DNA of 64,000 nt from assembly GCA_012295275.1 (NCBI GenBank), contig CM022672.1, positions 13,020,001 through 13,084,000 of the forward strand, read 5' to 3'. Every line of letters begins with the position of its first letter. Within the stretch, counting starts at the first letter, position 1. Shown piece by piece: positions 11-64,000 of the stretch. Made by a program: the position numbers and the translations under genes. A model generated the notes under the pieces. The model saw nothing but the letters and a program-made list of their open reading frames with translations, ran no database searches and was not told where the DNA came from. Origin of the DNA: Chrysomallon squamiferum (lineage: Eukaryota > Animalia > Mollusca).

Positions 11-692
11 TGTATGCCTGGTCTTGGAACAAAAGTGTTATATCAGTTGCTATATGAACCACCAACCAAAATCATGTTGTTGTCTGGTTGCAGCATAGTT
101 TCCACATTTGTTGCCCAGGCTGCCAAAATGTGGAATTTAGTTGTGGTGAGATATGTGTATTTTATTAAATATTGATTTTATATACATTTTTTAAATTAAG
201 AATTTCATCAACCTTTTTACATTATTTATTTATTTTCGATATGAACATTTTCTTTCTCAAAAATATTATATTATCATCAGCAGAACTGATATTTGAATTA
301 TTTAAAAGATGTTTTTAAATGTAGTTTGCATTATAATTAAAATAAATAATAATGGTAACTAAATAATCACAATATATATTTTTTAACTGTAATATTTTTG
401 CTACTAACAGAATATTATAATATATTTCATTATGAAATGTGTTATATTTCAGCTTGCTTATGGATCTAGCTCACCAGCTCTGTCAAACAGAGAACGATTC
501 CCTACATTTTTCAGAACTCATCCATCAGCAACTCTTCATAATCCAATAAGAGTCAAAGTTCTCAAACGATTTCACTGGACTCGAATTGCAACCATCCATG
601 AAACAGAGGAACTCTTTTCATCTGTACGATTTCTCAGCCATTATTTCTTTATAACTTGGAAAAATGTTACATCTGCACATCTACACATGGAC

Positions 693-759
<67 letters not shown>

Positions 760-2553
760 TACACATATACATATACATATACATACACACAAACACACAG
801 ATGCACACACTTACACACACAGAGAACATATACAATTAACACAAGTTATATATAAATTATGAGAAAGTACATTTTTATAGTTCATAGCTTTGATGGAAAT
901 TTACATTTAGGTGTAAAAAATAATTATGGAAACATTTTTACATCATTTAAAAAAAAATATATTGTGGAACATTTACAGCTAAAAGATTACTTCAGTTAAC
1001 TTAATAGTATATTAATTACATAATATTTTCTGATTGTGATTATGATAATTTTTATAAATATGCTTATAATCACAGCAATTCCCTTTATGTATTTGTATTC
1101 AGTTTAAATGTCAAATTAAATGTAAATTTGTTACTCAAATAGGAGCATTTAATTTTTTCTTAATATTTAATTAACCTCCATCAATGATTAAAATATAATT
1201 CTATAACATTTTTACTTGGAATTATAATACCTGTTTTTAAAACTCAAAATAATTGTAAACATGCCCAGATTTTCATTTATATATAAAAATAACATTAGTA
1301 AATATTATGTATATATTGTACATATTATGCGTGGTACAAGAACTCTGTAAATATATTGATTTACAGACAATAGAAGATCTTGAAACCAGAGTGAAATCAG
1401 CAGGGATTGAGATAGCTATAAGACAAAGTTTTCTCCGAGATCCAGCCAATGCTGTCAGGACTCTGAAGGTAACTTCTGTAATAATGTCAATAGTTCTAAC
1501 ATGTTTATAAAATGAATTCTTCAGTGCTGGTTTTTTTATTATTTTTTTTTTCATCCCTGATGGAAATAGTTAATGCTTGTTTTTTGTCTTGACTAATTGT
1601 CACAAAGCATGTTTTTGTTTAACCTTTTTTCCTTATTGTGGAAATGAACACATAAATAATTCTCTATATTAGTCTGAATGTTCCTTATAAAAAAATGTTG
1701 CTTTGTCCTGTTTAATCATTGTAATTACTGTATGTATGTATGTATGTATTTATTTATATTAATATTATTATTATTATTATTATTATTTTTATTTTTCAGA
1801 AACAGGATGCTCGTATTATTGTTGGTGTATTTTATGAAGATATGGCAAGAAGAGTTTTCTGCCAGGTGATTGTTTTGCTTCAAAATACATTTACAAAAAC
1901 ATTACATATCTTTGCTTATATTTTAAGTTTTAACAAAGGTCGTTTTAATATTTTATTAAAATAATTTTAAACAACATTACTATTTTAAATACATTTAAAT
2001 TTTAAATTAATGTGTCTATGTACATGTTTTTTGATTAATTTTTCAATTAATGTTTACATATATTTTTTTTTATTAATTTTTAAATTAATATGTATATTCA
2101 TTTTTTAAATTAATTATTATTTTCATTCAGGTTTATAAAGAGAAGTTGTATGGAAAGAAGTATGTGTGGTTCATTATAGGCTGGTACCCTGACAACTGGT
2201 ACAAAGTCTCCGATGACAGCATTGACTGCACAGTGGAGCAGATGGAGGAGGCTCTAGAGGGACACTTCACAACTGAGGCTGTCATTTTACACCAAGAACC
2301 CACAGTCACTGATGTTGGCATGGTATGGAACATTGTATAGATATATATTTTTCTTATGTATTGTTTTTATTTATACAGTTTTCTTTTTTAATATACTGTT
2401 ATTATTATTATTATTTGTTTCTTTGTTTGGTATGCTTTCATTTGGTTTGTTTTCTTTTTTTTATTGTTCTTGATTTATTTGATTTGATTTTTTTTTTTAA
2501 TTTCTTTTTATTGTTATTTTCTTTGTTGTAAAGATGTATATATATATATATTG

Positions 2554-5600: not shown

Positions 5601-8600
5601 GGTAAAATATAATGTAAAATATTTTATAAAATATAATTAAACATAAAATAAATATAATGAAGGATCTTTGTTTCAGAATAAAGAAAATCTTATAATTTAA
5701 TAATTTTGTTACATTATTTTTAGTTCTGTTTATCTGTGAAATGTTACTTTTTAAAACTATTTTCAGTTGTGTTGCTCTGTCCCAGCCTAACATAAACAGT
5801 CTAACTGTGTGTGGATGCATGCTGTGTCTGATGTGTATATTTCTGCTAGGACTGGACGGAAAGTTTGTGTCTCACACCACATACCCAATTGTCTGCCAGG
5901 TAGATCAGATACTGTGTCATTATTACTGCAAACAATTTTATATCATATATTTTATATATCTATTAAAATGTTTACTGTTTATGTCATTTATGTATTGATG
6001 GCAGTTTTAATTATTACTATTATTATCCAATATTTATATTATGCGAGCTTATGGTCACATGTTTGAAGCCAATATGAAAACTTGACATCTGCACTGAATA
6101 TGTTTTTTAATGATGTTGACAAAAGTTATCCACTATATTATAAAGCTATGTCTTCATTTATTTTTTTAAATCATTTGATGACTTATTTCTTGTTTATTTC
6201 AACAGGTCCGAGCTTGGCTGCTTTCAATAGGATTCACTCTAGGCTATGGGAGCATGTTCTCAAAGATTTGGACTGTCCATCAGTTGACCACAACACGTAA
6301 GAAGGACAGGAAGGTAATTATATTCTGATCAAGTATAATATTTATTAAAGTTAATTAGTTTTTCTGTAACAGCTAATAATTAAAAACCTCCAAACATCAT
6401 ATCCCGTTCCAGCCATTGCTCCATATTGATTTAGTAAAGCCATCATACGTATGTTTCTCAAAGATAAAGATAGCCCACATGGTGTCTGGGATGTTTTCTT
6501 TCCAGTAATATGATTAACTTAAAAACTTACCAGTATTAATATTTTTAAACAAAATGTTGAAGTAAAGCAAATATTAATTTATTTGGTACATTTATTCTCT
6601 TTTAGAAATTTTTCAGATTTGAAGGTAATTTATTTTTATCAGTTATACAGTGTTATTTTAAAAATAAAATTATTTTCAGACTGTAGAAAGCTGGGAACTG
6701 TACATTGTTCTTGTGATTCTGCTGCTGCTGGATATTGGAGTTCTTACTGCCTGGCAAATCCTTGACCCACTGCAGAGAAAACTGGACTACTTTAGTCTGG
6801 AAGACCCCACAGACACAGATGAAGATATTCAGTACAAACCACAGCTTGAGCAATGTGACTCAGAAAATCTTACTGTCTGGCTAGGTAGGTAGTTTTATCA
6901 TAAGTATTAAAGTGAATTGTTAAATACCAGTATATATACCCATTTGTCCATCAAATGTAGGACAGGTGATGACCTTGGTTTCTGGATAAAGGCTTAATAT
7001 ATATATTAAAATATAAAATAAACAACGACAAAATAAAGATTTAATTTAATTCTATGTGGATATTTTTCACTTTGACTTTATATATTTTGCAATACATATT
7101 TATACAGTGTTTTGTTAAAAACATCTTTTGTTTGAAATATTTAATGTATCCCAGTTAAAACAGTTTTCTGCTAATTCTGGTTTCCAGAAGTCAGATAAAT
7201 GGTCTGGTATATCTATTAATTATTTAGTTATTCTCAAAAAATAACTCCATTTATTAGTTTCATTTTATTTTTAAAAAATGTTTGACTTTTATTAATTCTG
7301 TTAGTATTAAATAACAAAAACAACTTGCTAAGCACTTTACTGCATTAACTCCTTAAATATATTAAATGCCTACAAAAAACACCTAATGAATGGTTTGTTT
7401 TGTCCTTCACTACAGGAGTATTGTTTGGTTACAAGGGCATCTTGCTTATCTTTGGTATTTTCCTGGCTTATGAGACAAGAAGTGTTAAACTGAAACAAGT
7501 GAACGACTCAAGATTTGTTGGCATGAGCATTTATAATGTTGTGGTAAGCTTAAAATTAATTATTTTTATTTATTTTTTCATAACATGTCCTGCATTTACA
7601 TCTGATAATATATATGTCTGTTTAGTCTATATATGATATAGTGAAGAGATATTTGTAAACATTCCAACACATTTCCTCAACCTTTGCAGTATCAGCATAT
7701 GATTTTATCATGTATATATATATATATATGATTTTATCATATATATATATATATATATATAATTGGTCTATATGTTATACCAAATGTATATTTGTATATA
7801 ATTATATTTGTGTAAATAAATAATAGAGATTTATGGGAGGGGGCTTAAGTTCAAAGCTACGTTAAGAAGAAAGAAAGAACTTAATGGGGAAAAAATCATT
7901 GCATTATAATTGTTTAATAATGACTAAAGCTGAAGACTAAAACTGAAAAAGAAAAAAGGTCAGTTAAATAAAAGAGATATATGAAATAAACTTGTTGATT
8001 TATGACTAAATAATATTTCTTGTTCTAATCTGACCAGGTCCTATGTGTGATCACTGCTCCTATAAGTTTGATTATAAGTCATCAAGAAGATGCTACATTT
8101 GCTTTCTGCAGTTTGGCCATTGTGTTGTGCAGTTTTCTCTCAATGGGGCTCATTTTTGCACCAAAGGTATTCATTATAAAACAACAAACAGAGAAACTGA
8201 AATCTGAACATGATTTAAATGTTGTTAGCTAAAGGTTTATCAGGAAGAGCAAGCATATGTGTGCATTCATATATGTTTGCTTGTGTGTGTGTATGTATGT
8301 TTGTGTGCTTGGGTATATGTGTGTGTGTTTGTGTTGGTATGAATCTATATGTGTGCATATATCAGTGTATGAGTGATTAGCCTTGTGATCTTTAATTTTC
8401 TTTTCACAAATTTGAGCTATCATTCTACAAAAATGACAACATCAAAAGCAGTACTACAGCATCATTATGACTATGAAATTAAAGCTATTTTCTAATTAAT
8501 CAGATGATTGAGATTGCACGGAATCCACAAAGAAATGGACAGGAGGTCAGATCACTGACTGACTCTCTTGTAAGTCGAGAGGAAGAAGAACGCCACCAGA

Positions 8601-9453
8601 GACTTCTGGGAGAAAATGAACAACTGAAGAAACAAATTGCTGAGGTAATTTTTATTAAGTTGTACCATCAAACTCAATAACAGTGCTCCCCTCCAAATAA
8701 GAAGTGATTATTTATCATTGTTTTTTTTAACAGAAATTAAACAATTTCAGTAAATATCTTAATAATTGTTTTCAGCAGTTTATGATAATAATTAAGCTAA
8801 CCTTACAAAGATTTGTATGTAGATAACCAACTGTCAGCCTCTGATTTTATGCAATTAACTGACGATATTATTATCTTAAATAGTAAATAATTCCATATGG
8901 ATGTTATCTGATAGATAATAGAATATTCTTTAATCTTGTGCCAATACATATCAGTTATTTGGTAAAATAAATGGTTCCTAGTTGGGCAAGTATCATCACA
9001 AACTACATTATTTCATGTTATAGACCAGTATAAAAATGAATGAAGTTGAGTGGATAAAGTTTGCTTTTATATTTCCAAATGTACATATTTTCAAGATTCT
9101 AATCAGTTTTCATCAAGGAACTATCTTTAATATTTCTAAAACATTAAATGTTTTAGATGGAAGACAGAGTTCGAGAATTAAATCTCCGTGTGCAGGAAAA
9201 GACACAACAGCGAGCTCAACAAACACAAGGAGTTGGAAGCTGCCAGACTGCAAACAAGGTTACCGTGGATACTGGGGAAGTGGAGATGGAGGAGGATGCC
9301 CCTCCTTCCCCTGATGAGCAGTCTCACTTCCACATGATAAAACCAGAAGATGTAGGAATAGCAGCTGATCCTAACTCAGATTCTGGTCTGGCTAGTGGGT
9401 CGTTTGCCAAAAGCTCCAAAACATCAGCTTCTGATTCAGAACCTTTCTGTTAA
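11..9453 (+). CDS. GABBR1: GABA-B receptor subunit 1 (class C GPCR), 5'-partial; 17 coding exons in window
   Basis: GT-AG exons: 11-145, 453-623, 1367-1468, 1800-1865, 2131-2322, 3031-3176, 3741-3846, 4267-4330, 4463-4540, 5052-5202, 5767-5899, 6206-6313, 6680-6884, 7416-7543, 8038-8166, 8504-8644, 9157-9453. Total 2352 nt, all phases consistent (783 aa plus stop). Venus-flytrap motifs [67 protein letters not shown]. 7TM motifs [44 protein letters not shown]. Coiled coil [21 protein letters not shown]. The GABA-contact residues typical of B1 (not B2) are present. Confidence 0.96.
691..820. repeat. (CATACA)n microsatellite
   Basis: Directly visible hexamer array in a GABBR1 intron. Confidence 0.9.
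2529..2646. repeat. (TA)n with duplicated TAAAGATG(TA)nTTGTTTAAT flank
   Basis: Directly visible. Confidence 0.85.
3161..3545 (+). repeat. Degenerate 110-140-bp tandem triplication starting at the GABBR1 exon-6 end and donor
   Basis: ACAGAACAGCAACCAG|GTAC (3161) is echoed by ACAGAACAGAAACTTGGTAT (3408). TTCACTAA.TAAAAC.ATAAAT occurs three times and TCTAACTGAAGAAA occurs at 3244 and 3498. Confidence 0.65.
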
Positions 9454-11870: not shown

Positions 11871-21694
<9,824 letters not shown>

Positions 21695-55515: not shown

Positions 55516-58500
55516 GGTATATGAATATAATTGCGTTTAAGAGTAATCCGGAGAACAATGTTGAGTGCACAGTTTCTGGAGTCAGTGCCGCGCTAAGAGG
55601 AGAGGTTGTTTGATGGTAACTCAATCCCTCAACGCCGATTTAGCTACTCTTAGTATTTCCAGGCGATTCATTTCGGAACACGCGCAGACGCCGGTGCAGA
55701 AGACACAGAGAGGCTCAGTAGCAAACTCACCCAACTTGTTATATCGCTTCCTTAGACACCATCGAGGCTTCTGTACGTCAAGACATATTTTATAATTTTC
55801 CAGAAGGAAAAGAAAGGGAGTTAACTAAATATTCCTTGTGCAATAATATTTGTCTTGTGTTAGCTGATCTCAGTCTAATGTTTATCGCATTCTACGCACT
55901 GCAATTACTGGATAACGTAATTTTGGGCTTCCGTTTCAGTGGCACGTGATATATGTGTGTGTGTGTAGAGATATATATTTATGTGTGTGTCTGTTGGTTT
56001 GTGCGTGTACACAAAAACTCATAAACATACATTTATCATTTATGGGACCTTTGTTTCGTAATAATAGGAATTAAAATATAATTATTTGTAATATGTTCAT
56101 TTTATATGTGGAGCTATTATTATTAATACTTTCTTAATTGATTTATCTTAACCTAATATAAATGAATACAGATTAATAATGACGATATCCTCTATATTGT
56201 TAAAATCAAACAGTTACAGAAAGTTGTGGAATGTGTGATGATGGCTTCTTTACTGAGATTTGGATCAAGATAAATCTTTAAAATAATTTATCTAGAGGCA
56301 AATATTATTTTATTACTATTTTATTTTATTTTTTTTATTATTATTTTTTATTATTATTATTAATAATTATTTTTTATTTATATTTTATTATTATTATTAA
56401 ATTTAAAAAAAAAAAATAATAATAAAAAATCCGTGAAAAGCTATTTCCATACACGTTGAATAAGCATAACTGAAAAGTTCAAAACATCATTAAAGGTCTG
56501 ACTTAAATGTGCCAATCATACTTAATTAACCGTAATCTAGGTGTACTTTATCTGAACAAGCATTATGATTTAAATTGACCATCGTTATTGTTGTTGTTAT
56601 TATTATTATCATAATGACCATCCAATGATGCCATCAGAGATGGTGTTTGTATAGAAGCTAAACAAAATATCTGTACTGGGTTACATCTCGGTAGTGGAGT
56701 TTAGCCTGAGCTGCCAAATGTTTTAGGATCAACCCTCGACAAAGTACCAATCTTGTTAAATACTTTTGTATCTGTACAAAAGAATGTCTAAATTGAAAGC
56801 AAGAATAACAAAATCAACGACAAGCATTCTACGGAATATTGTTTTCCAGACAAACAATACTTTTGAAAGAAACAAAAAATCTCTTGAAATAGACAGAAAA
56901 TGAGAACAAATAAGATACAGTTTCCTGTCACGAGATGGCCATATATGGAAACATGACACTAATTACTTAATTAAAAATTCAGATCTGATCTGAAGTCATA
57001 GAAAAATATTTATATTTTATCACTGTTGTCGGGAAAACAAAAGGTCTTAACGGGAAAACCAAAAATTTGCTGTTGTCATTCCTATTGGTTTTAAAGCCTT
57101 TATTTTTTTCTTCTTCTTTATAGCCACTTATATTAAGATAGCTTGCAATCCACGAATCATTGATATAATTTTTTTTTTTTTTTTCAACTCGCATAAAGAT
57201 ATTTATCAGTTTTTTTTCCACCTCCCATTTATGATTACATCACATTGTTGACATTTCGTCTGCTTAGCCGAAAATAGCGTACGACAAAATGAATCGCGAT
57301 TTTTTTTTTAGTCACGTGATACGAATTTGTCCAATTCAAGGACTTACAACAAATGCACTTTACGAAAATGGAATTATTCTTGAATGGATTACTGTGTGGA
57401 ACATGCAACAACTGATGTAAAGATCGACCAACATCATTTTTAATCTTTGTTTTGCTTGTCGTATGCTTAAAGTATAGACCTAAATATAAATTATATACAT
57501 AACATAAAGACAAATAAAAAAAAGTAAAAATATAATTAAAATATATAAAATAAAAACATAACTTAAATACATAAAATAAAAATATAAATGGAATATATAA
57601 AATAAAAACAATATAAATTAGTATATATAATTTACACTGAAATATTTGCTTTTACTTTTTGTTATACAGTAAAGGCACATCATCAGGAACGAATCCAGTT
57701 TTTCTGGGGGGAAAAAAAGGGTAAGGTGTCACCTTTGAAAAATCTATTTCATTATACAAAATAAATAAATATTATTATTTTTTAATTTTTTTGAAAATCA
57801 CACATGAAAAAGATAAGCTCTACATTTCTCATTTTCTAGGTCCATATATAACATGCAACTAGCACAGACGAAATAGTTTTGTGTTTTTTGTTTTTTTTTG
57901 TTTCACTGCAGTTCTTTACGGTATGTTGATGGAATCTTGATACGTACAAAAATCAATGTTGTCGTTTTTCTTTTTCTTTTTTTTAATGCTACAAGCATGA
58001 CAGCTTGAGTAATCCAGTTTATGCCGCAAAGGCAAGAGTTCTAAAAGTACATTAAAGGAAGAATCCTAAATTAGCATATTTATATAACTTAGCAAGATGC
58101 GATTTTTCAATGTGCTTATTAACATCCGATATGAAAAATAAGATCCAACAGATGATGTTTGAGAAAATAAGTTCTTGAGATTTTTAAATATTACGTTAAT
58201 AAATGAATGTTTAACAACACCCCCATCATGAAAAACATATCGGCTATTGGGTGTCAAGCCGAGGCAAATACAACAAAATGGCGATAACTTTATGAAAATT
58301 CAAAAATTAATTAAAACTGCGTAAAGAGCTGTGCAAAAATAAATGTATCGCAATTTAATTAAATTACACTTTATCGTAAAATTCTTTAATTTTCAAATTT
58401 GTTTTAATCAAATTGAGGATGGAATCGAAAGGATTTCATCACACTTATTTGACCTAATATATAGTTCATTAAGAAAAATTAAAAAAAGAAGAACAAGAAA

Positions 58501-59505
58501 TGAAAGGCACTTTATTACGGAGAAATAGATACATACTGAAAGATACAGATAGATGTTGCACAAAGTTATTAGAACTAGAATTTATTGTTTATTACTGCTG
58601 AAATTGAAATGACAAAAATGAACATTTCAAATTTAAATCGAAAGAAAAAATAAAAACCATCCAAAACTTTTCTGGATAAAGGAATAAACTATTAAAGGCT
58701 TAACAATAAATACATTTTATTATTCGGCATTGTGGTTACTCAGTCTGAATAACAAAAGTGGTTTAGTAAGTGAATTCAAATTCATGAATATTGTTATTCA
58801 TTCAGTGAACAGCTGCAGGCTGTACAAATTAACTGATTAACTGACAAATATTTAAAGAAATCTCAAAAACTGAGAAAGGCCCAGTTACTAAAAACATTTT
58901 TATTCTTCAAAACATTGTTACATTTAAAACAAAAGCAAATGATATATTGAATTTTATTTGGTTTGAATTACACTGGATTAATGTTGATCAACAACTAGTC
59001 TTTGACTGCCATTTACCTGCAACTATCTGATGAATGAGGCAAATATTAACTGCCTTTTTGTTAAGCTGTTTTTATTTATTTATTTTCTTTTTTTTAAATT
59101 TTATTAATATATTTTTTTGTCAGAAAATAGCAATTAAAAATCACATTTATAGAGATATACATATATATATATGTTTAAATTAATAAAAAAAAAAAAAAAT
59201 GAAGTTTATAATTAGAACAAAGTTTAAGCAATTTTCAATATGTGTAACAAAACCTCTTTTAAAAAATCAATATGAAACACAAACAGAAAATAAAAGTAAA
59301 AAAACCTCCAATGTCTTTTATGTTGTGACATACAAACAACCACTATCACATTAACAGTAACTTTAACAGATTAAAAAATATATACCTCAAAGAAATGTTA
59401 TCAGTGTATTAAAAAACCGGAAACATTCTGATAAAAATAACTGTTTATTAATATTTGTATTTGATCTGTTCATATAGATGACAGTAAGAATACATTTACA
59501 TTTTG

Positions 59506-61235
59506 TTAATCTGAATTTAATCTGCTGCTTGATGGAAATGTACCAGGGGCATACAAGTCGTATTTTGAAGTTGATCCACCATGATTCATAATGTGATTGA
59601 ACAACTGTTTGGCAGATCTCTTCCTCCTAATTGTCAAGTATCTATTCTCACCTTTACCATAACTGCGAGACAACAGTCCCAGTTGCTGACTGAACTGATG
59701 AAGAATTGCTCTTTCTTCTTTTGTGAAATTTGGTTCAAACACCAAATCATCCTCCCTGTCTGAACGAACATAATTTAAAACTACTTCTTCCAGTTTTGCT
59801 TTCATATCAACAGAGATGCCACTATCTGCATGTAATCCAAGACCCTTGCGGTTTACAACCTGTTCAACAGCAACAGGGTCAGAAATACCCATGCCGTCCT
59901 TACCAACACCCCCTCCAGCCCATCCCATTTTTCTTAACAACTTGTTGCCAATGTTACTCTCAGGAATTTTTTGCGACTCTTTCTCAATGTCACCAAGGAC
60001 ATCGTCTTTGGACAAACGTGCCTGGTCAGTGTCCACTGTTTTCTTGAGACAAACTGTCCAGCACTGCTCCTTCAGCAGCTCTAGTGCCACATCTGAGGCT
60101 TGGATCTGGGCTGCATGTTTAGTACATGCAAGGCACTCGATCACAGGAAGATCATTAATGGCTATACAGCATTTTATTCCACCAATATCAGGATAGTAAT
60201 AGTAAGACAATGCAGCTTTGTTGAAGTCAGTACTCTGTTGTAGTATCTGTGTTGATGACACACGTTCAAAATCCATGGGCAGGATAACCAGAAATTGATT
60301 CAGATGTTTAAGAGATTCTTTGTGTGGTTTTTTCAAATTACTTTCAGGTTTTTGGTTCTGGTTTTGTTCTGAAGAGGTTTCACCATGCGATAATACTCCA
60401 TTAAAAGGGAAATCTGAACTTACCAGTTTTGAAGAAACAACTTTCAGATATTTTTCCCTAAGTTTTTTGCTAATGATTTTGAAAGCGTTATGCTTAGCCA
60501 CCTTTTATTGGGACCTTTTTCTCTGGCTACTTCCACAGAATCAATAAATACAGTGCATTCGTAACAACTCCCGCTTTCAGTAAACTCAGTGTTAAACTGA
60601 ACACTCATATGTAGTTTTGAAGCTGCCTCATAAATAATTTCAATGTCATTTTTAGCTTCATTTTGTAACAGTTTCACAGTTTTGGCAAAGTTTATGAACC
60701 TATTATCTAGTTCTTCTTCATATGCATTCTTTGTTATCTGCTTCAAAGCAGTTTTAAAATTATTTGATGCAAATTTCATTCTTTTCCCATCTTGATTTTG
60801 TGACTGTTTGCCTGCACTAGATGAACTAGATGAACATATATCTGTACTTTTATATGGTGTTCTAGATTTAACAAAACCACACGACATTTCTTTTTCTTTT
60901 AACACATGGCTTACACTCGTATTACCCAAATCTGATGAACTAGTCTCAGATGCTTTAACAAAGTTCATTTTATATTTTCTTTTTCTTACATCTTTCTGTT
61001 CTTCAACAAGGTCTGGTAATTCTTTTTTCAGTTCTGCCAGCTGCTTCATTACCAGCTCAGGATATCTACAACCATCTTGTTCAACATTAACAAAACATTT
61101 AGATAAACAAACCAGTCTGTCTGCGGGAAACTTCCTCCAATGTGCAGACAGAAATTTTTTTCTTAGTTTCCAACTAGAAGGATTTTCATCATTTTCACGA
61201 AAATTATCGACATCAAAATTTTCATCAGTATGCAT
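59506..61235 (-). CDS. NKRF: NKRF-like protein (XRN2-binding XTBD, dsRBD-like domains, G-patch, R3H); intronless, split by a 1-nt frameshift at 60503-60506; about 576 aa when corrected
   Basis: ORF 61235-60444 begins with an XTBD (WKLRKKFL...RLVCLSKCFVNV...GCRYP). ORF 60501-59506 contains a G-patch (IPESNIGNKLLRKMGWAGGGVGKDGMGISDPV...RKGLG) and an R3H domain (FEPNFTKEERAILHQFSQQLGLLSRSYGKGENRYLTI). Adding one A to AAT AAAA GGTG gives GPNKKVAKHNAF, a dsRBD helix-2 KKxAK motif that joins the two ORFs. Confidence 0.88.
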
Positions 61236-61317
61236 ATTTATGTTTAAAGAAAACTACTACTATCTTTTTTGGTGAATAATATAATTTTTAATATTCTAAA
61301 TGTCTATGAACATTTAA

Positions 61318-61557
61318 TTAATTCGTTATTAAGCTTTCTTCCATTTCCTTACCAAGTTCATGTAATTGAGTCATTACTGGTGCTGGATATCTGCATCCAT
61401 CTTGCTTAACATTTACGAAACATTTAGATAAACATACCAGTCGATCTTCTGGGAATTTATCATAATGTGCGATTAAAAAGTTTTTTCGCAATTTCCAACT
61501 CGTTGGATTTTCGTCGTTCTCTTTGTATTGTTCAACTACTTTCAATTTGTTTTCCAT
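61318..61557 (-). CDS. 79-aa XTBD-only (XRN2-binding domain) micro-protein with CDKN2AIPNL-like architecture; tandem paralog of the NKRF N-terminus
   Basis: ATG in strong context (AAACAAAC-ATG-G). 45 of 56 residues are identical to the adjacent NKRF XTBD, the GCRYP motif is intact, and many of the differences between the copies are synonymous. Confidence 0.75.
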   Translation of the reverse strand: MENKLKVVEQYKENDENPTSWKLRKNFLIAHYDKFPEDRLVCLSKCFVNVKQDGCRYPAPVMTQLHELGKEMEESLITN

Positions 61558-61689
61558 GTTTGTTTGTTTTTTCCAATCGCAGCTTTCGAAGAAAAAAAGA
61601 GCGGAAAATCTTAATCTTTTGGACGCTATTATCAGTTTCTAATAACAAATATTAACAAGCGAATGTTTTGTGATAAATTTCACATTTAA

Positions 61690-61790
61690 ACATTAGCGCG
61701 TTGAGCAACGTTTTTCTAACCTCGCGGACGTTGAACACACCGGAAGACCACCATTTTTGTCATATTTGTTTTCTACCGTTGTCGGTGAGT
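61690..61790. promoter_or_regulatory. Candidate compact bidirectional promoter
   Basis: Local CpG cluster, ETS-type CCGGAAG at 61740-61746 and a YY1-like CCATTTT. Outward-facing splice donors sit on both strands: minus GAG|GTTAGA at 61720 and plus TCG|GTGAGT at 61785. Confidence 0.45.
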
Positions 61791-64000
61791 AAAACCATCG
61801 AAATATGGTTTTGGCTAAAACCAAAATATTTAGAACAATATTTTAATGATGTATTTGAAACTTGATAAAAATAAGTTTGCCCTTTTAAAAGGTACAATAA
61901 TTATTATAATAAGAATTATCATGAAATAAAAATAAAATGATAAATGTTTGTGCAGTTTAAAATCCAGTAAATTGTAATGTTAGAATTATTGTTATTTATT
62001 TAATTTAATCTTATTTTACGATTTTAAAATTATTATTGGTATTGTTTAATAGTGTAGTAATGGTGCTGCTCCATAAATTATGAGTAAGTAAAACTTTCAA
62101 ATATTAGACATATAGAGGCAAACATTTAATAAACTCTGATACGATGCATCGAGTGATTATTTTCTGCTTAGTATGGTTTGAATACTTTCCTGTTCTGTGG
62201 AAAGACAGAAGACAGAAAATATTTCAGTGAATGATTAACAAGTACACCTTGTATTTGAAGAAACAGTGTCTGTGTGAATGGGTGAGGGAGAGTGAAAGAT
62301 AAAACAATACTTCGTATTGCTGTCAGTTGTACCAAAACATATATATAAATACAAGTTCACGACTTATACAGATATACACACACTTTAAACAATAACAACA
62401 CAGTTAAAAGATGACATTAGCATTTATTGAATCAAAGCTCTGTGAAAACGACAAGATGGGGAATAAAACAACAGATTTTAAGAACACAATGACACAAGTA
62501 ACGTAACAATACTTTATGATTTAATGCATGTAACAAACTTATATTATCAAAAACAGAAAGAAAAGACATAAATATACAAAAATGATTATTTATTAAAAAT
62601 AAATTATTATCCAGCAATAAAACCTTTAAATTAAATAAAGGGAAACTATTTATAAATTTCGAACCTATCTTTTAAATTTTCTTCGACATAAAAAAAACCT
62701 CATTCTTTCCTGAAAACTAAAGTATCAGTTTCCTTCTTGTCCATTTTGTTCAGTTTCAGATGATTTTAATTTATTAAATGGTAATACATGGGAACACTTA
62801 ATTTCCAATTCAGATATAGCTCTAATTACCTTGTATTCTAAAGTTACACCAACTTTAGGATTTGCTGAATTAAAATATCTGCCACATTAACATAAAATCC
62901 AAGTTATTGTAATCTTATAAGATTCAAGTTGTCAATAAATAAATAAATAAATAAATAAAAATAAATATGCTCAAACTGATTCAGAGAAGATCAACCAAAT
63001 GTTGCAAAGGTAATTTAATTTAAGCCTCTTTACCTAAGTGCAGATTACTCTTCTGTGCAGGAATAGATGTACAATTCATACAATGACCCTCCACACATGC
63101 ACACATTCATACACACACATTCACATTTATATCATCTTTGTGCAATAATTACTTTCTGAACAGTTATTTACATATTTAAATGATGTGATGAATTTAACAC
63201 TCATTTCACCAACGGCTAGACATAACAATCAAACATTACACTATAAATTTCCCTTTTTCATTAAAAAAAAGACAAAATGAAAATGTAGGAGAGACAGATA
63301 TTAGCACACTATTTTACAATACAAATAAATTTCCTCATCTTCTAAAATCAATATCTCATGTGACTGTTTTTCTATTTCCTTTTTTTGCCCACCTATCAAA
63401 AACATAAAAAAGTTCACTGATACATTTATAATAATATAGTTTTAAATCGTATTCCATAAAAAGCCAAATTTCTTTAGATGACAGATTGCCACCGGTAAAT
63501 AAAAAAAAATTTAATTTAAAAAATAGTAATAAATAATTCTGACATAAGAAAAAAAATACTCTTACATTCTCTCTATACATAAACAATCTGAAACAAACAC
63601 TGTTACCTATTTAAAATATTTTTAATAATGAATTATTAATAATTGTTTTTTAATATAAATTGCTATTCACCATTTGCAGTGATATAATGAGGCATTAACA
63701 TTATCATACTGAATGGCCACACTTCTTTAAACTCTTTGAAAAAGTATTTACAAAATTCCTGTTTCTTAAATCTGGCCATACATCACAGTACATTGCTTTC
63801 AAAAGCTGGTGTTGTGTACATCATCTGTGCCAATATCATTTGTGGGTTTTTTCTGAACCTGACACTCTTTAATTTAAAATAAATAAAAAAAATAAAAGTT
63901 CTTATATTTCACTTAATAATGTAAGTTAATTTTTTATATTTTTTATTTATATTAAGCAGATGTTAATAAAGAGAAGATGATTGCCATATTCCGTCCATTC

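What the first reader, a model, noticed from the sequence alone, without database searches (positions are those of the whole stretch)
61000..61557. Stand-alone XTBD micro-protein ORF 82 nt upstream of NKRF: possible two-product XRN2-regulator locus
Seen: a 79-codon ORF with a strong start context ends 82 nt before the NKRF ATG on the same strand and duplicates the NKRF XTBD (45/56 aa identical). Across ENDENP..GCRYP I count about 18 synonymous codon differences among 39 identical residues (e.g. TTG/CTA, CGA/AGA, GGA/GGT). That pattern suggests an old duplicate kept under purifying selection, not a decaying copy. Known: XTBDs (PAXT-1, CDKN2AIP, CDKN2AIPNL, NKRF) bind and stabilise the exonuclease XRN2, and NKRF couples XRN2 to DHX15 through its G-patch. 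Inference: 82 nt leaves little room for a polyA site plus a promoter, so one transcription unit may make both a free XTBD (XRN2 stabiliser or competitor) and full NKRF. This would be an independently evolved counterpart of vertebrate CDKN2AIPNL.
Basis: partly seen in the sequence, partly recalled or inferred. Interest (0 to 1): 0.8.

Follow-up and report, generated by a model that had tools for sequence, protein, structure and literature searches.

The report
XRN2-binding microprotein gene heading snail NKRF
In what is likely a snail, an old, conserved and transcribed copy of the first domain of the ribosome-making factor NKRF sits 82 bases in front of NKRF itself, so one promoter likely makes both a 79-residue protein predicted to hold the RNA-degrading enzyme XRN2 and the full NKRF that would compete with it for that enzyme.

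Summary
A 79-codon ORF (61557-61318, minus strand) encodes only an XTBD and ends 82 nt before the NKRF ATG. It is a real gene. Synonymous sites against the NKRF copy are saturated (pS 0.84, pN 0.13). A 76-aa ortholog (76% identical) shares its longest-contig length with a relative's NKRF. The predicted fold matches PAXT-1 XTBD, with the key tyrosine kept. The gap is not an assembly error; NKRF's frameshift at 60502 is. In trees the small copy branches from gastropod NKRF, apart from other short XTBDs. Two RNA runs of one study cover the ORF. One contig bridges both ORFs unspliced, both runs end near 61740, and the only CpG-rich peak lies there. A shared transcription unit is therefore likely, but contigs cannot prove one mRNA. 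How NKRF is translated is open: leaky scanning has no support (10 intervening ATGs, no depletion). XTBD-only proteins and dicistronic paralog pairs are known kinds. New here are this pairing, and signs that short XTBD copies arose from NKRF repeatedly, on the same contig as NKRF in two further lineages. XRN2 binding and translation are untested.

The parts
61558..61800 (-). Likely promoter and 5' leader shared by both ORFs: CpG-rich, RNA contigs end at 61734 and 61744; short upstream ORFs start at 61763/61754, 61693 and 61685
   Evidence: CpG o/e 1.88 against 0.31-0.44 in the NKRF body; contig ends; ATG list
61318..61557 (-). XTBD-only ORF, 79 aa, strong start context; Cys55 and Tyr57 kept
   Evidence: covered by RNA contigs of X2 and X3
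61236..61317 (-). 82-nt spacer, 17% GC, no CpG; one weak ATG (61313, 5 codons); ATTAAA at 61292 and a GU/U-rich run after 61263 (candidate proximal poly(A) site); candidate splice acceptors at 61304 and 61296
   Evidence: no indel in contigs
59506..61235 (-). NKRF, single coding exon: XTBD, G-patch, R3H; split in the window by a one-base assembly error at about 60502
   Evidence: (148/260 and 212/325 identical to the 587-aa relative P0002)
59320..59505 (-). 3' untranslated region of NKRF, AATAAA at 59449; RNA contigs run at least to 59320, the edge of the stretch laid
61713..61720 (-). Candidate weak splice donor (GAG|GTTAGA); an intron from here to 61304 or 61296 would remove the small ORF. 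No joint was seen.
   Evidence: pattern scan only; no joints

Best explanation
The 79-codon ORF is a conserved, transcribed partial duplicate of NKRF's XTBD that likely shares one promoter near 61.75 kb with NKRF on an unspliced two-ORF RNA, and its product is predicted to fold like the PAXT-1 XTBD and would bind XRN2 without NKRF's RNA-binding and helicase-recruiting parts. Shown: the duplicate, its constraint, its ortholog, its transcription, and one RNA contig bridging both ORFs. Inferred: scanning ribosomes make the microprotein efficiently from its strong start. NKRF is then made at a lower rate from the same RNA by re-initiation or internal entry, not by leaky scanning. Part of the RNA may end at a poly(A) site in the spacer and give microprotein only. 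The free XTBD would stabilise XRN2 and keep a pool outside the nucleolus, competing with NKRF, which recruits XRN2 to pre-rRNA. That is the role that PAXT-1, CDKN2AIPNL and CDKN2AIP fill in nematodes and vertebrates.
For: Purifying selection. Ortholog P0001 is 76 aa and 76% identical, and shares the longest-contig length 95588 with the 587-aa NKRF P0002. In the tree the small copies pair (100/97), the NKRFs pair (99/92), and all four join Haliotis asinina NKRF (99/93). The AlphaFold model has pLDDT 90 and matches 5FIR PAXT-1 at rmsd 1.0-1.4 A, with nothing else under E 1. Tyr57 is invariant in 63 of 63 aligned short XTBDs and aligns with the GCEY tyrosine of PAXT-1. RNA run X2 has one contig 60242-61734 with no joint; X3 has a contig 61263-61744; neither has cover upstream of 61744 or a loose 5' end. 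These runs hold only 51-55 million letters, too few for genome-wide DNA at depth 8-13 if the genome is of the usual molluscan size (inference). There is a single CpG peak at 61500-61900 and none at the NKRF start. Precedent: PMC4528330 (passages) gives 159 dicistronic pairs in Drosophila, about 18% of polycistronic loci with similar genes, and stop-to-start gaps of -34 to 319 nt in exclusively polycistronic loci. PMC10511037 (parts 1-2) says one XTBD binds one XRN2 and that CDKN2AIPNL can replace PAXT-1.
Against: Only 1 of the 3 RNA runs laid bridges the ORFs. X1 laid nothing and X3 has a hole at 61062-61262. Contigs cannot show strand, ends or single molecules, and total-RNA libraries can merge overlapping or nascent transcripts. 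X5, whose contig spans everything, is of unrecorded kind and may well be DNA (535 million letters, depth 48.7 here and 51.3 on an unrelated contig), yet it too stops at 61753, which weakens the 5'-end argument. Ten ATGs lie between the two starts, and out-of-frame ATGs are not depleted (7 seen, 5.8 +/- 1.4 expected). There is no UGGGA motif on the coding strand of the small ORF and no unusual structure around the spacer (z -0.36). Re-initiation falls with uORF length (PMC5972666, passages), so the route to NKRF is unexplained. The spacing and order in the relative were not seen.
Confidence: 0.5

Rival explanations
1. One promoter makes two monocistronic mRNAs. An unspliced short form ends at the poly(A) site in the spacer and makes the microprotein. 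A spliced form joins a leader exon of about 30 nt (donor 61720) to an acceptor in the spacer and makes NKRF.
For: The donor- and acceptor-like sites and ATTAAA plus a GU/U-rich run exist. The X3 contig ends 24 nt after the hexamer. This removes the translation problem. A first exon this short could be lost in contig assembly (inference).
Against: No joint was found in any run, and X2 runs through unspliced. The sites are weak. ATTAAA or AATAAA occurs in 30% of random 82-mers of this window, and X3 has other holes.
Confidence: 0.22
2. These are two closely packed genes. NKRF has its own start site within the small ORF or the spacer, and the bridging contig comes from overlap or read-through.
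For: The small ORF is itself CpG-rich (o/e 1.26). In Drosophila, downstream partners of dicistronic pairs often have their own promoter (PMC4528330, passages). Contigs merge overlapping RNAs.
Against: The spacer has no CpG and 17% GC, and CpG falls steadily from one peak upstream of the small ORF.
Confidence: 0.2
3. The ORF matters only as a regulatory upstream ORF or is a decaying duplicate, and its peptide has no function.
For: There is no protein-level evidence. The Pfam match lacks the last 19 profile positions. Another lineage has many short NKRF 5' copies of varied length.
Against: pN is far below pS. An ortholog is kept at 76% identity while the NKRFs of the same two species are 57-65% identical. 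The fold and the key tyrosine are kept.
Confidence: 0.06
4. The two XTBDs belong to one protein, like the two-XTBD fish CDKN2AIP, and are split here by assembly error or joined by splicing or frameshifting.
For: Two-XTBD proteins exist in fish (PMC10511037). In-ORF donor-like sites lie at 61437 and 61352. The assembly does have an indel error elsewhere in NKRF.
Against: Contigs of X2, X3 and X5 confirm the stop, and X2 and X5 the whole spacer, without indels or joints. The NKRF frame is closed by a stop 18 nt before its ATG. The ortholog also stops at 76 aa.
Confidence: 0.02

Closest known systems
Human CDKN2AIPNL (C2AIL) and the XTBD of C. elegans PAXT-1 (PDB 5FIR; Pfam PF11952)
   Same: The XTBD is the only domain; same predicted fold (rmsd 1.0-1.4 A, 40-42% identity to PAXT-1); conserved tyrosine kept. 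CDKN2AIPNL binds XRN2 and replaces PAXT-1 (PMC10511037, parts 1-2).
   Different: Shorter (79 aa). It branches from gastropod NKRF. It lies 82 nt upstream of NKRF, whereas the vertebrate genes are on different chromosomes (recalled). Vertebrate CDKN2AIPNL was not in my trees.
NKRF (XTBD, dsRBM-like region, G-patch, R3H)
   Same: The downstream ORF has XTBD, G-patch and R3H; the relative P0002 also has a weak dsrm hit. It is the parent of the small copy.
   Different: Single coding exon, with a second XTBD gene in what looks like its 5' leader. No such arrangement was found in the papers returned.
Dicistronic paralog pairs of Drosophila (sloth1/sloth2 and others)
   Same: A small ORF first and a paralog after it on one RNA, by tandem duplication (PMC9681215 and PMC4528330, passages).
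   Different: sloth1 has a weak start, a 5-nt gap and leaky scanning. Here the first start is strong, ATGs are not depleted, and the first product is a truncated copy that could compete with the second.
Other invertebrate XTBD-only proteins (for example Mactra antiquata KAL4219208.1, 74 aa)
   Same: About 75 aa, XTBD only.
   Different: A single clade with the gastropod pair is rejected (p-AU 0.0018); their position relative to NKRF was not seen.

Membership tests
XTBD family (PF11952) | Profile match above the curated cut-off | tested here: met
   77.9 bits against cut-off 27.6
XTBD family (PF11952) | PAXT-1-like helical fold | tested here: met
   Model pLDDT 90; 5FIR chains at E 2e-5 to 8e-5, TM 0.74-0.81 by query length. 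It is a prediction, for a family with a solved member.
XTBD family (PF11952) | Conserved tyrosine needed for XRN2 binding | tested here: met
   Tyr57 aligns to PAXT-1 GCEY and is invariant in 63 of 63 rows. The need for a conserved Tyr is from PMC10511037; that it is PAXT-1 Tyr56 is recalled.
XTBD family (PF11952) | Binds and stabilises XRN2 | not testable with these tools
Ortholog of vertebrate CDKN2AIPNL | Common descent from one stand-alone XTBD gene rather than from the lineage's NKRF | tested here: not met
   Nested among gastropod NKRF XTBDs (99/93 with Haliotis NKRF); a single clade of short copies is rejected. Caveats: 78 columns, no vertebrate row, groups named after an earlier tree was seen, and gene conversion could mimic this.
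Dicistronic mRNA | One mature RNA molecule carries both ORFs | tested here: inconclusive
   1 of 3 RNA runs laid has a bridging contig; contigs are not molecules.
Dicistronic mRNA | Both ORFs are translated from it | not testable with these tools
   Needs ribosome profiling or reporters.
Leaky-scanning dicistron (sloth1/2 type) | Weak first start and few ATGs before the second | tested here: not met
   Strong context, 10 intervening ATGs, no depletion
NKRF (downstream ORF) | XTBD plus G-patch plus R3H in one reading frame | tested here: met
   Domains; frame continuous in X2 and X5 contigs; a full-length relative of 587 aa exists

The most novel reading that the evidence does not exclude
Duplication of NKRF's 5' end into a free XTBD gene placed beside NKRF has happened repeatedly in invertebrates, at least three times by the same-contig pairs seen here. 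In this gastropod lineage it has become a fixed dicistronic module. The choice between a poly(A) site in the 82-nt spacer and read-through would set the ratio of free XTBD to NKRF, and so how much XRN2 stays in the nucleoplasm or goes to the nucleolus. Because XRN2 itself degrades RNA downstream of a cleaved poly(A) site, the locus could be an XRN2-sensing feedback switch for ribosome biogenesis.
Probability: 0.15. Interest if true: 0.75.

Novelty: new variant of a known kind. Interest (0 to 1): 0.45.

Why it matters
Whether NKRF and the other XTBD proteins compete for XRN2 to control ribosome biogenesis is named as an open question in PMC10511037, and the cellular role of XTBD-only CDKN2AIPNL is uncharacterised there. 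A lineage that rebuilt an XTBD-only gene from NKRF, kept it under selection and probably put it under the same promoter suggests that animals need a free XTBD in some ratio to NKRF. It also offers a compact 2.3-kb locus on which to test that. In practice, annotation would likely miss the 79-codon gene and call this NKRF broken because of an assembly error.

Tried and rejected
No whole genome is held for this window, so other XTBD copies and XRN2 of this species could not be searched; within the window there are only these two XTBDs. Scans of metagenome, viral and prokaryotic contigs returned four loci (L001-L004), all chance matches (7 bits or less against the XTBD profile). No relative's DNA was obtained, so no ortholog dN/dS, spacing or gene order. 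ESM Atlas gave only hits of 0.82 or less to unrelated clusters. Rfam found nothing in 56000-64000. There was no unusual RNA structure at the spacer, no UGGGA motif on the coding strand, and no depletion of ATGs. No DNA similarity remains between the flanks of the two copies; blastn matched only about 150 nt of coding sequence. Run X1 laid no contigs despite a word share of 0.76, and the hole in X3 at 61062-61262 proves nothing. The share-of-words test of whether X5 continues upstream was inconclusive (0.83 seen; 0.785 or 0.878 expected). Many short XTBD hits look like first exons read into introns (P0162, P0082, P0087; P0165/P0205 diverge after KVSA), so short length alone was not taken as proof of a stand-alone gene. 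Richter et al. 2016 was not held. No complex prediction was run. Earlier scan notes: none by sequence or place; those found by words concern giant-virus XTBDs and were not used.

Full report
What is there. On the minus strand, an ORF of 79 codons (61557-61318) ends 82 nt before the ATG of an NKRF gene at 61235. Both start with an XTBD (Pfam PF11952, 77.9 and 74.1 bits); the far part of NKRF has G-patch and R3H domains. The window's NKRF is split by a frameshift near 60502. Contigs of two public runs (X2, X5) have an extra T there, and three have a 21-nt insertion near 60918-60925, so the gene is an intact single coding exon of about 583 aa. The same contigs list no indel in the small ORF or the spacer, so the separation of the two XTBDs is real. 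The nearest named NKRF is from Haliotis asinina, so I infer a gastropod. No whole genome was held.

The small ORF is a gene. Between the two copies pS is 0.84 (saturated) and pN 0.13 over 56 codons (Fisher p about 2e-15). A search with the peptide found one near-length relative among 1 candidate: P0001, 76 aa, 76% identical. Among 8 longer candidates it found one NKRF, P0002, of 587 aa. Both have a longest contig of 95588 nt in the same source, which points to the same contig. The small proteins of the two species are 76% identical and their NKRF XTBDs 78%, while the two halves of NKRF align at 57% and 65%. The model (pLDDT 90) matches only the PAXT-1 XTBD of 5FIR (rmsd 1.0-1.4 A). Tyr57 lines up with the GCEY tyrosine of PAXT-1 and is invariant in 63 of 63 aligned short XTBDs. 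PMC10511037 (parts 1-2 of 3 and passages read) says that a conserved tyrosine is needed for XRN2 binding.

Origin. In a 39-row tree (78 columns; long rows P0005 and P0075 left out) the two small proteins pair (100/97) and the two NKRFs pair (99/92). The four group at 94/81, and with Haliotis NKRF at 99/93. The 41-row tree gave the same grouping. The quick 155-row tree also gave the small pair and the clade with Haliotis, but left the NKRF pair unresolved. AU tests reject pairing the small copy with its own NKRF (p 0.0008), joining it to five short XTBDs that branch with or near Mytilus NKRF (p 0.0018), and joining it to the other same-contig short copies (p 4e-34). The groups were named after an earlier tree was seen, no vertebrate sequence was included, and gene conversion could give the same picture. 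The simplest reading is a partial tandem duplication of NKRF in a gastropod ancestor, before the split from the P0001/P0002 species. That makes it an analogue, not an ortholog, of CDKN2AIPNL.

How general is it? XTBD-only proteins are common. The profile search found 443 representatives, and 62 of the 155 XTBD rows taken into the first tree were from proteins of 150 aa or less. Many are first-exon fragments, but some look complete (Mactra antiquata, 74 aa). Among 83 rows for which a longest-contig length was seen, four lengths were shared, each by a short XTBD and the NKRF-like protein of its own lineage: 95588, 138251, 410454 and 2957. That is 4 of 22 long rows, with no match between unrelated rows. 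Two of the pairs belong to one lineage (P0165/P0007 and P0205/P0161), where the short partner may be the first exon of a longer gene. The 2957-nt case (P0178, 77 aa, 88% identical to P0043) leaves at most 1439 nt between the genes, but that lineage has many short copies of varied length. Order, strand and spacing could not be read for any of them. So repeated duplication of NKRF's 5' end is indicated; a repeated dicistronic layout is not shown.

Transcription. Five runs hold the stretch: four RNA runs from one study and one of unrecorded kind. Four were laid on 59320-61960, all as contigs. X1 laid nothing. X2 has one contig from 60242 to 61734, across the small ORF, the spacer and half of NKRF, with no joint. 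X3 has a contig from 61263 to 61744 and others in NKRF, with a hole between. Neither covers the roughly 200 nt upstream that were laid, and neither has a loose 5' end. X5 spans 59320-61753, but its size and even depth suggest DNA. It then confirms the genomic layout rather than the RNA, and its stop at 61753 warns that contig ends here may not mark the start site (could not settle this). Independent of reads, CpG o/e is 1.88 in 61558-61800, 1.26 in the small ORF, 0 in the spacer and 0.31-0.44 through NKRF. That is one promoter-like peak, upstream of the small ORF; reading low CpG as gene-body methylation is from general knowledge of invertebrates. I put a shared promoter at about 0.7.

How NKRF gets made. 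The small ORF has the better start context (ACAAAC-ATG-G against ATAAAT-ATG-C), and ten ATGs lie between the two starts. Out-of-frame ATGs are not depleted (7 seen, 5.8 expected), so leaky scanning of the sloth1/sloth2 type (PMC9681215, passages) is unlikely. There is no UGGGA motif on the coding strand and no unusual structure, and re-initiation falls with uORF length (PMC5972666, passages). Still, in Drosophila most dicistronic pairs do not meet the requirements for scanning either, and 45 of 159 have no known monocistronic form (PMC4528330, passages). I commit to a two-ORF RNA with inefficient re-initiation or internal entry at NKRF (0.5). The main rivals are a spliced NKRF isoform with a very short first exon (0.22) and a second start site (0.2). 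The spacer has ATTAAA, then 24 nt, then a GU/U-rich run, and the X3 contig ends at that point. This hints at a short microprotein-only mRNA, but such hexamers occur in 30% of random 82-mers here.

Function (inferred). NKRF brings XRN2 to the nucleolus through its XTBD (PMC7054742, part 1 and passages). CDKN2AIP holds XRN2 in the nucleoplasm, PAXT-1 stabilises it, CDKN2AIPNL can replace PAXT-1, and one XTBD binds one XRN2 (PMC10511037). A bare XTBD would therefore stabilise XRN2 and compete with NKRF for it. XRN2 also regulates polycistronic units through intercistronic regions in C. elegans (PMC5025045, abstract only), which suggests the feedback reading given as the novel case. None of this was tested here.

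Novelty. Searches of the paper library returned no report of an XTBD-only gene in tandem or co-transcribed with NKRF. I judged this from listings plus the texts named above; subscription papers, including the structure paper, and all supplements were not seen. Both ingredients are known kinds, the XTBD-only XRN2 partner and the dicistronic paralog pair. Their combination and the repeated origin from NKRF appear undescribed. Verdict: real, new variant of a known kind, interest 0.45.

Noticed in passing
window 60502: One-base deletion in a T run splits NKRF in the assembly; contigs of X2 and X5 have the extra base. A 21-nt in-frame insertion near 60918-60925 is in all three runs that cover it.
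   Followed up: yes
P0004 (Haliotis asinina XP_067662478.1), residues 1-76: The NKRF model has two R3H stretches, the extra one apparently before the XTBD, as if the end of an upstream NKRF copy were joined to the next; P0149 (Physella acuta) has its XTBD after the R3H, and P0005 (Branchiostoma lanceolatum) holds two of each domain. NKRF loci seem prone to tandem duplication and fused gene models.
   Followed up: partly
P0178, P0182, P0177, P0170, P0173, P0179, P0183, P0013, P0206: An unnamed lineage with many 77-111 aa XTBD proteins close to its own NKRF-like proteins; one pair shares a 2957-nt longest-contig length.
   Followed up: partly
window 61780-61795, + strand: A donor-like TCG|GTGAGT inside the CpG-rich region may belong to a head-to-head gene on the plus strand; no contig supports it in the stretch laid.
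   Followed up: no
window 408-839, 7349-7636, 9157-9453, + strand: Exon-like frames that resemble a GABA-B receptor subunit (recognised from memory in the translations; not searched).
   Followed up: no
window 14511-15059, + strand: A 182-codon stop-free frame whose middle part looks like a real exon of an unidentified gene.
   Followed up: no
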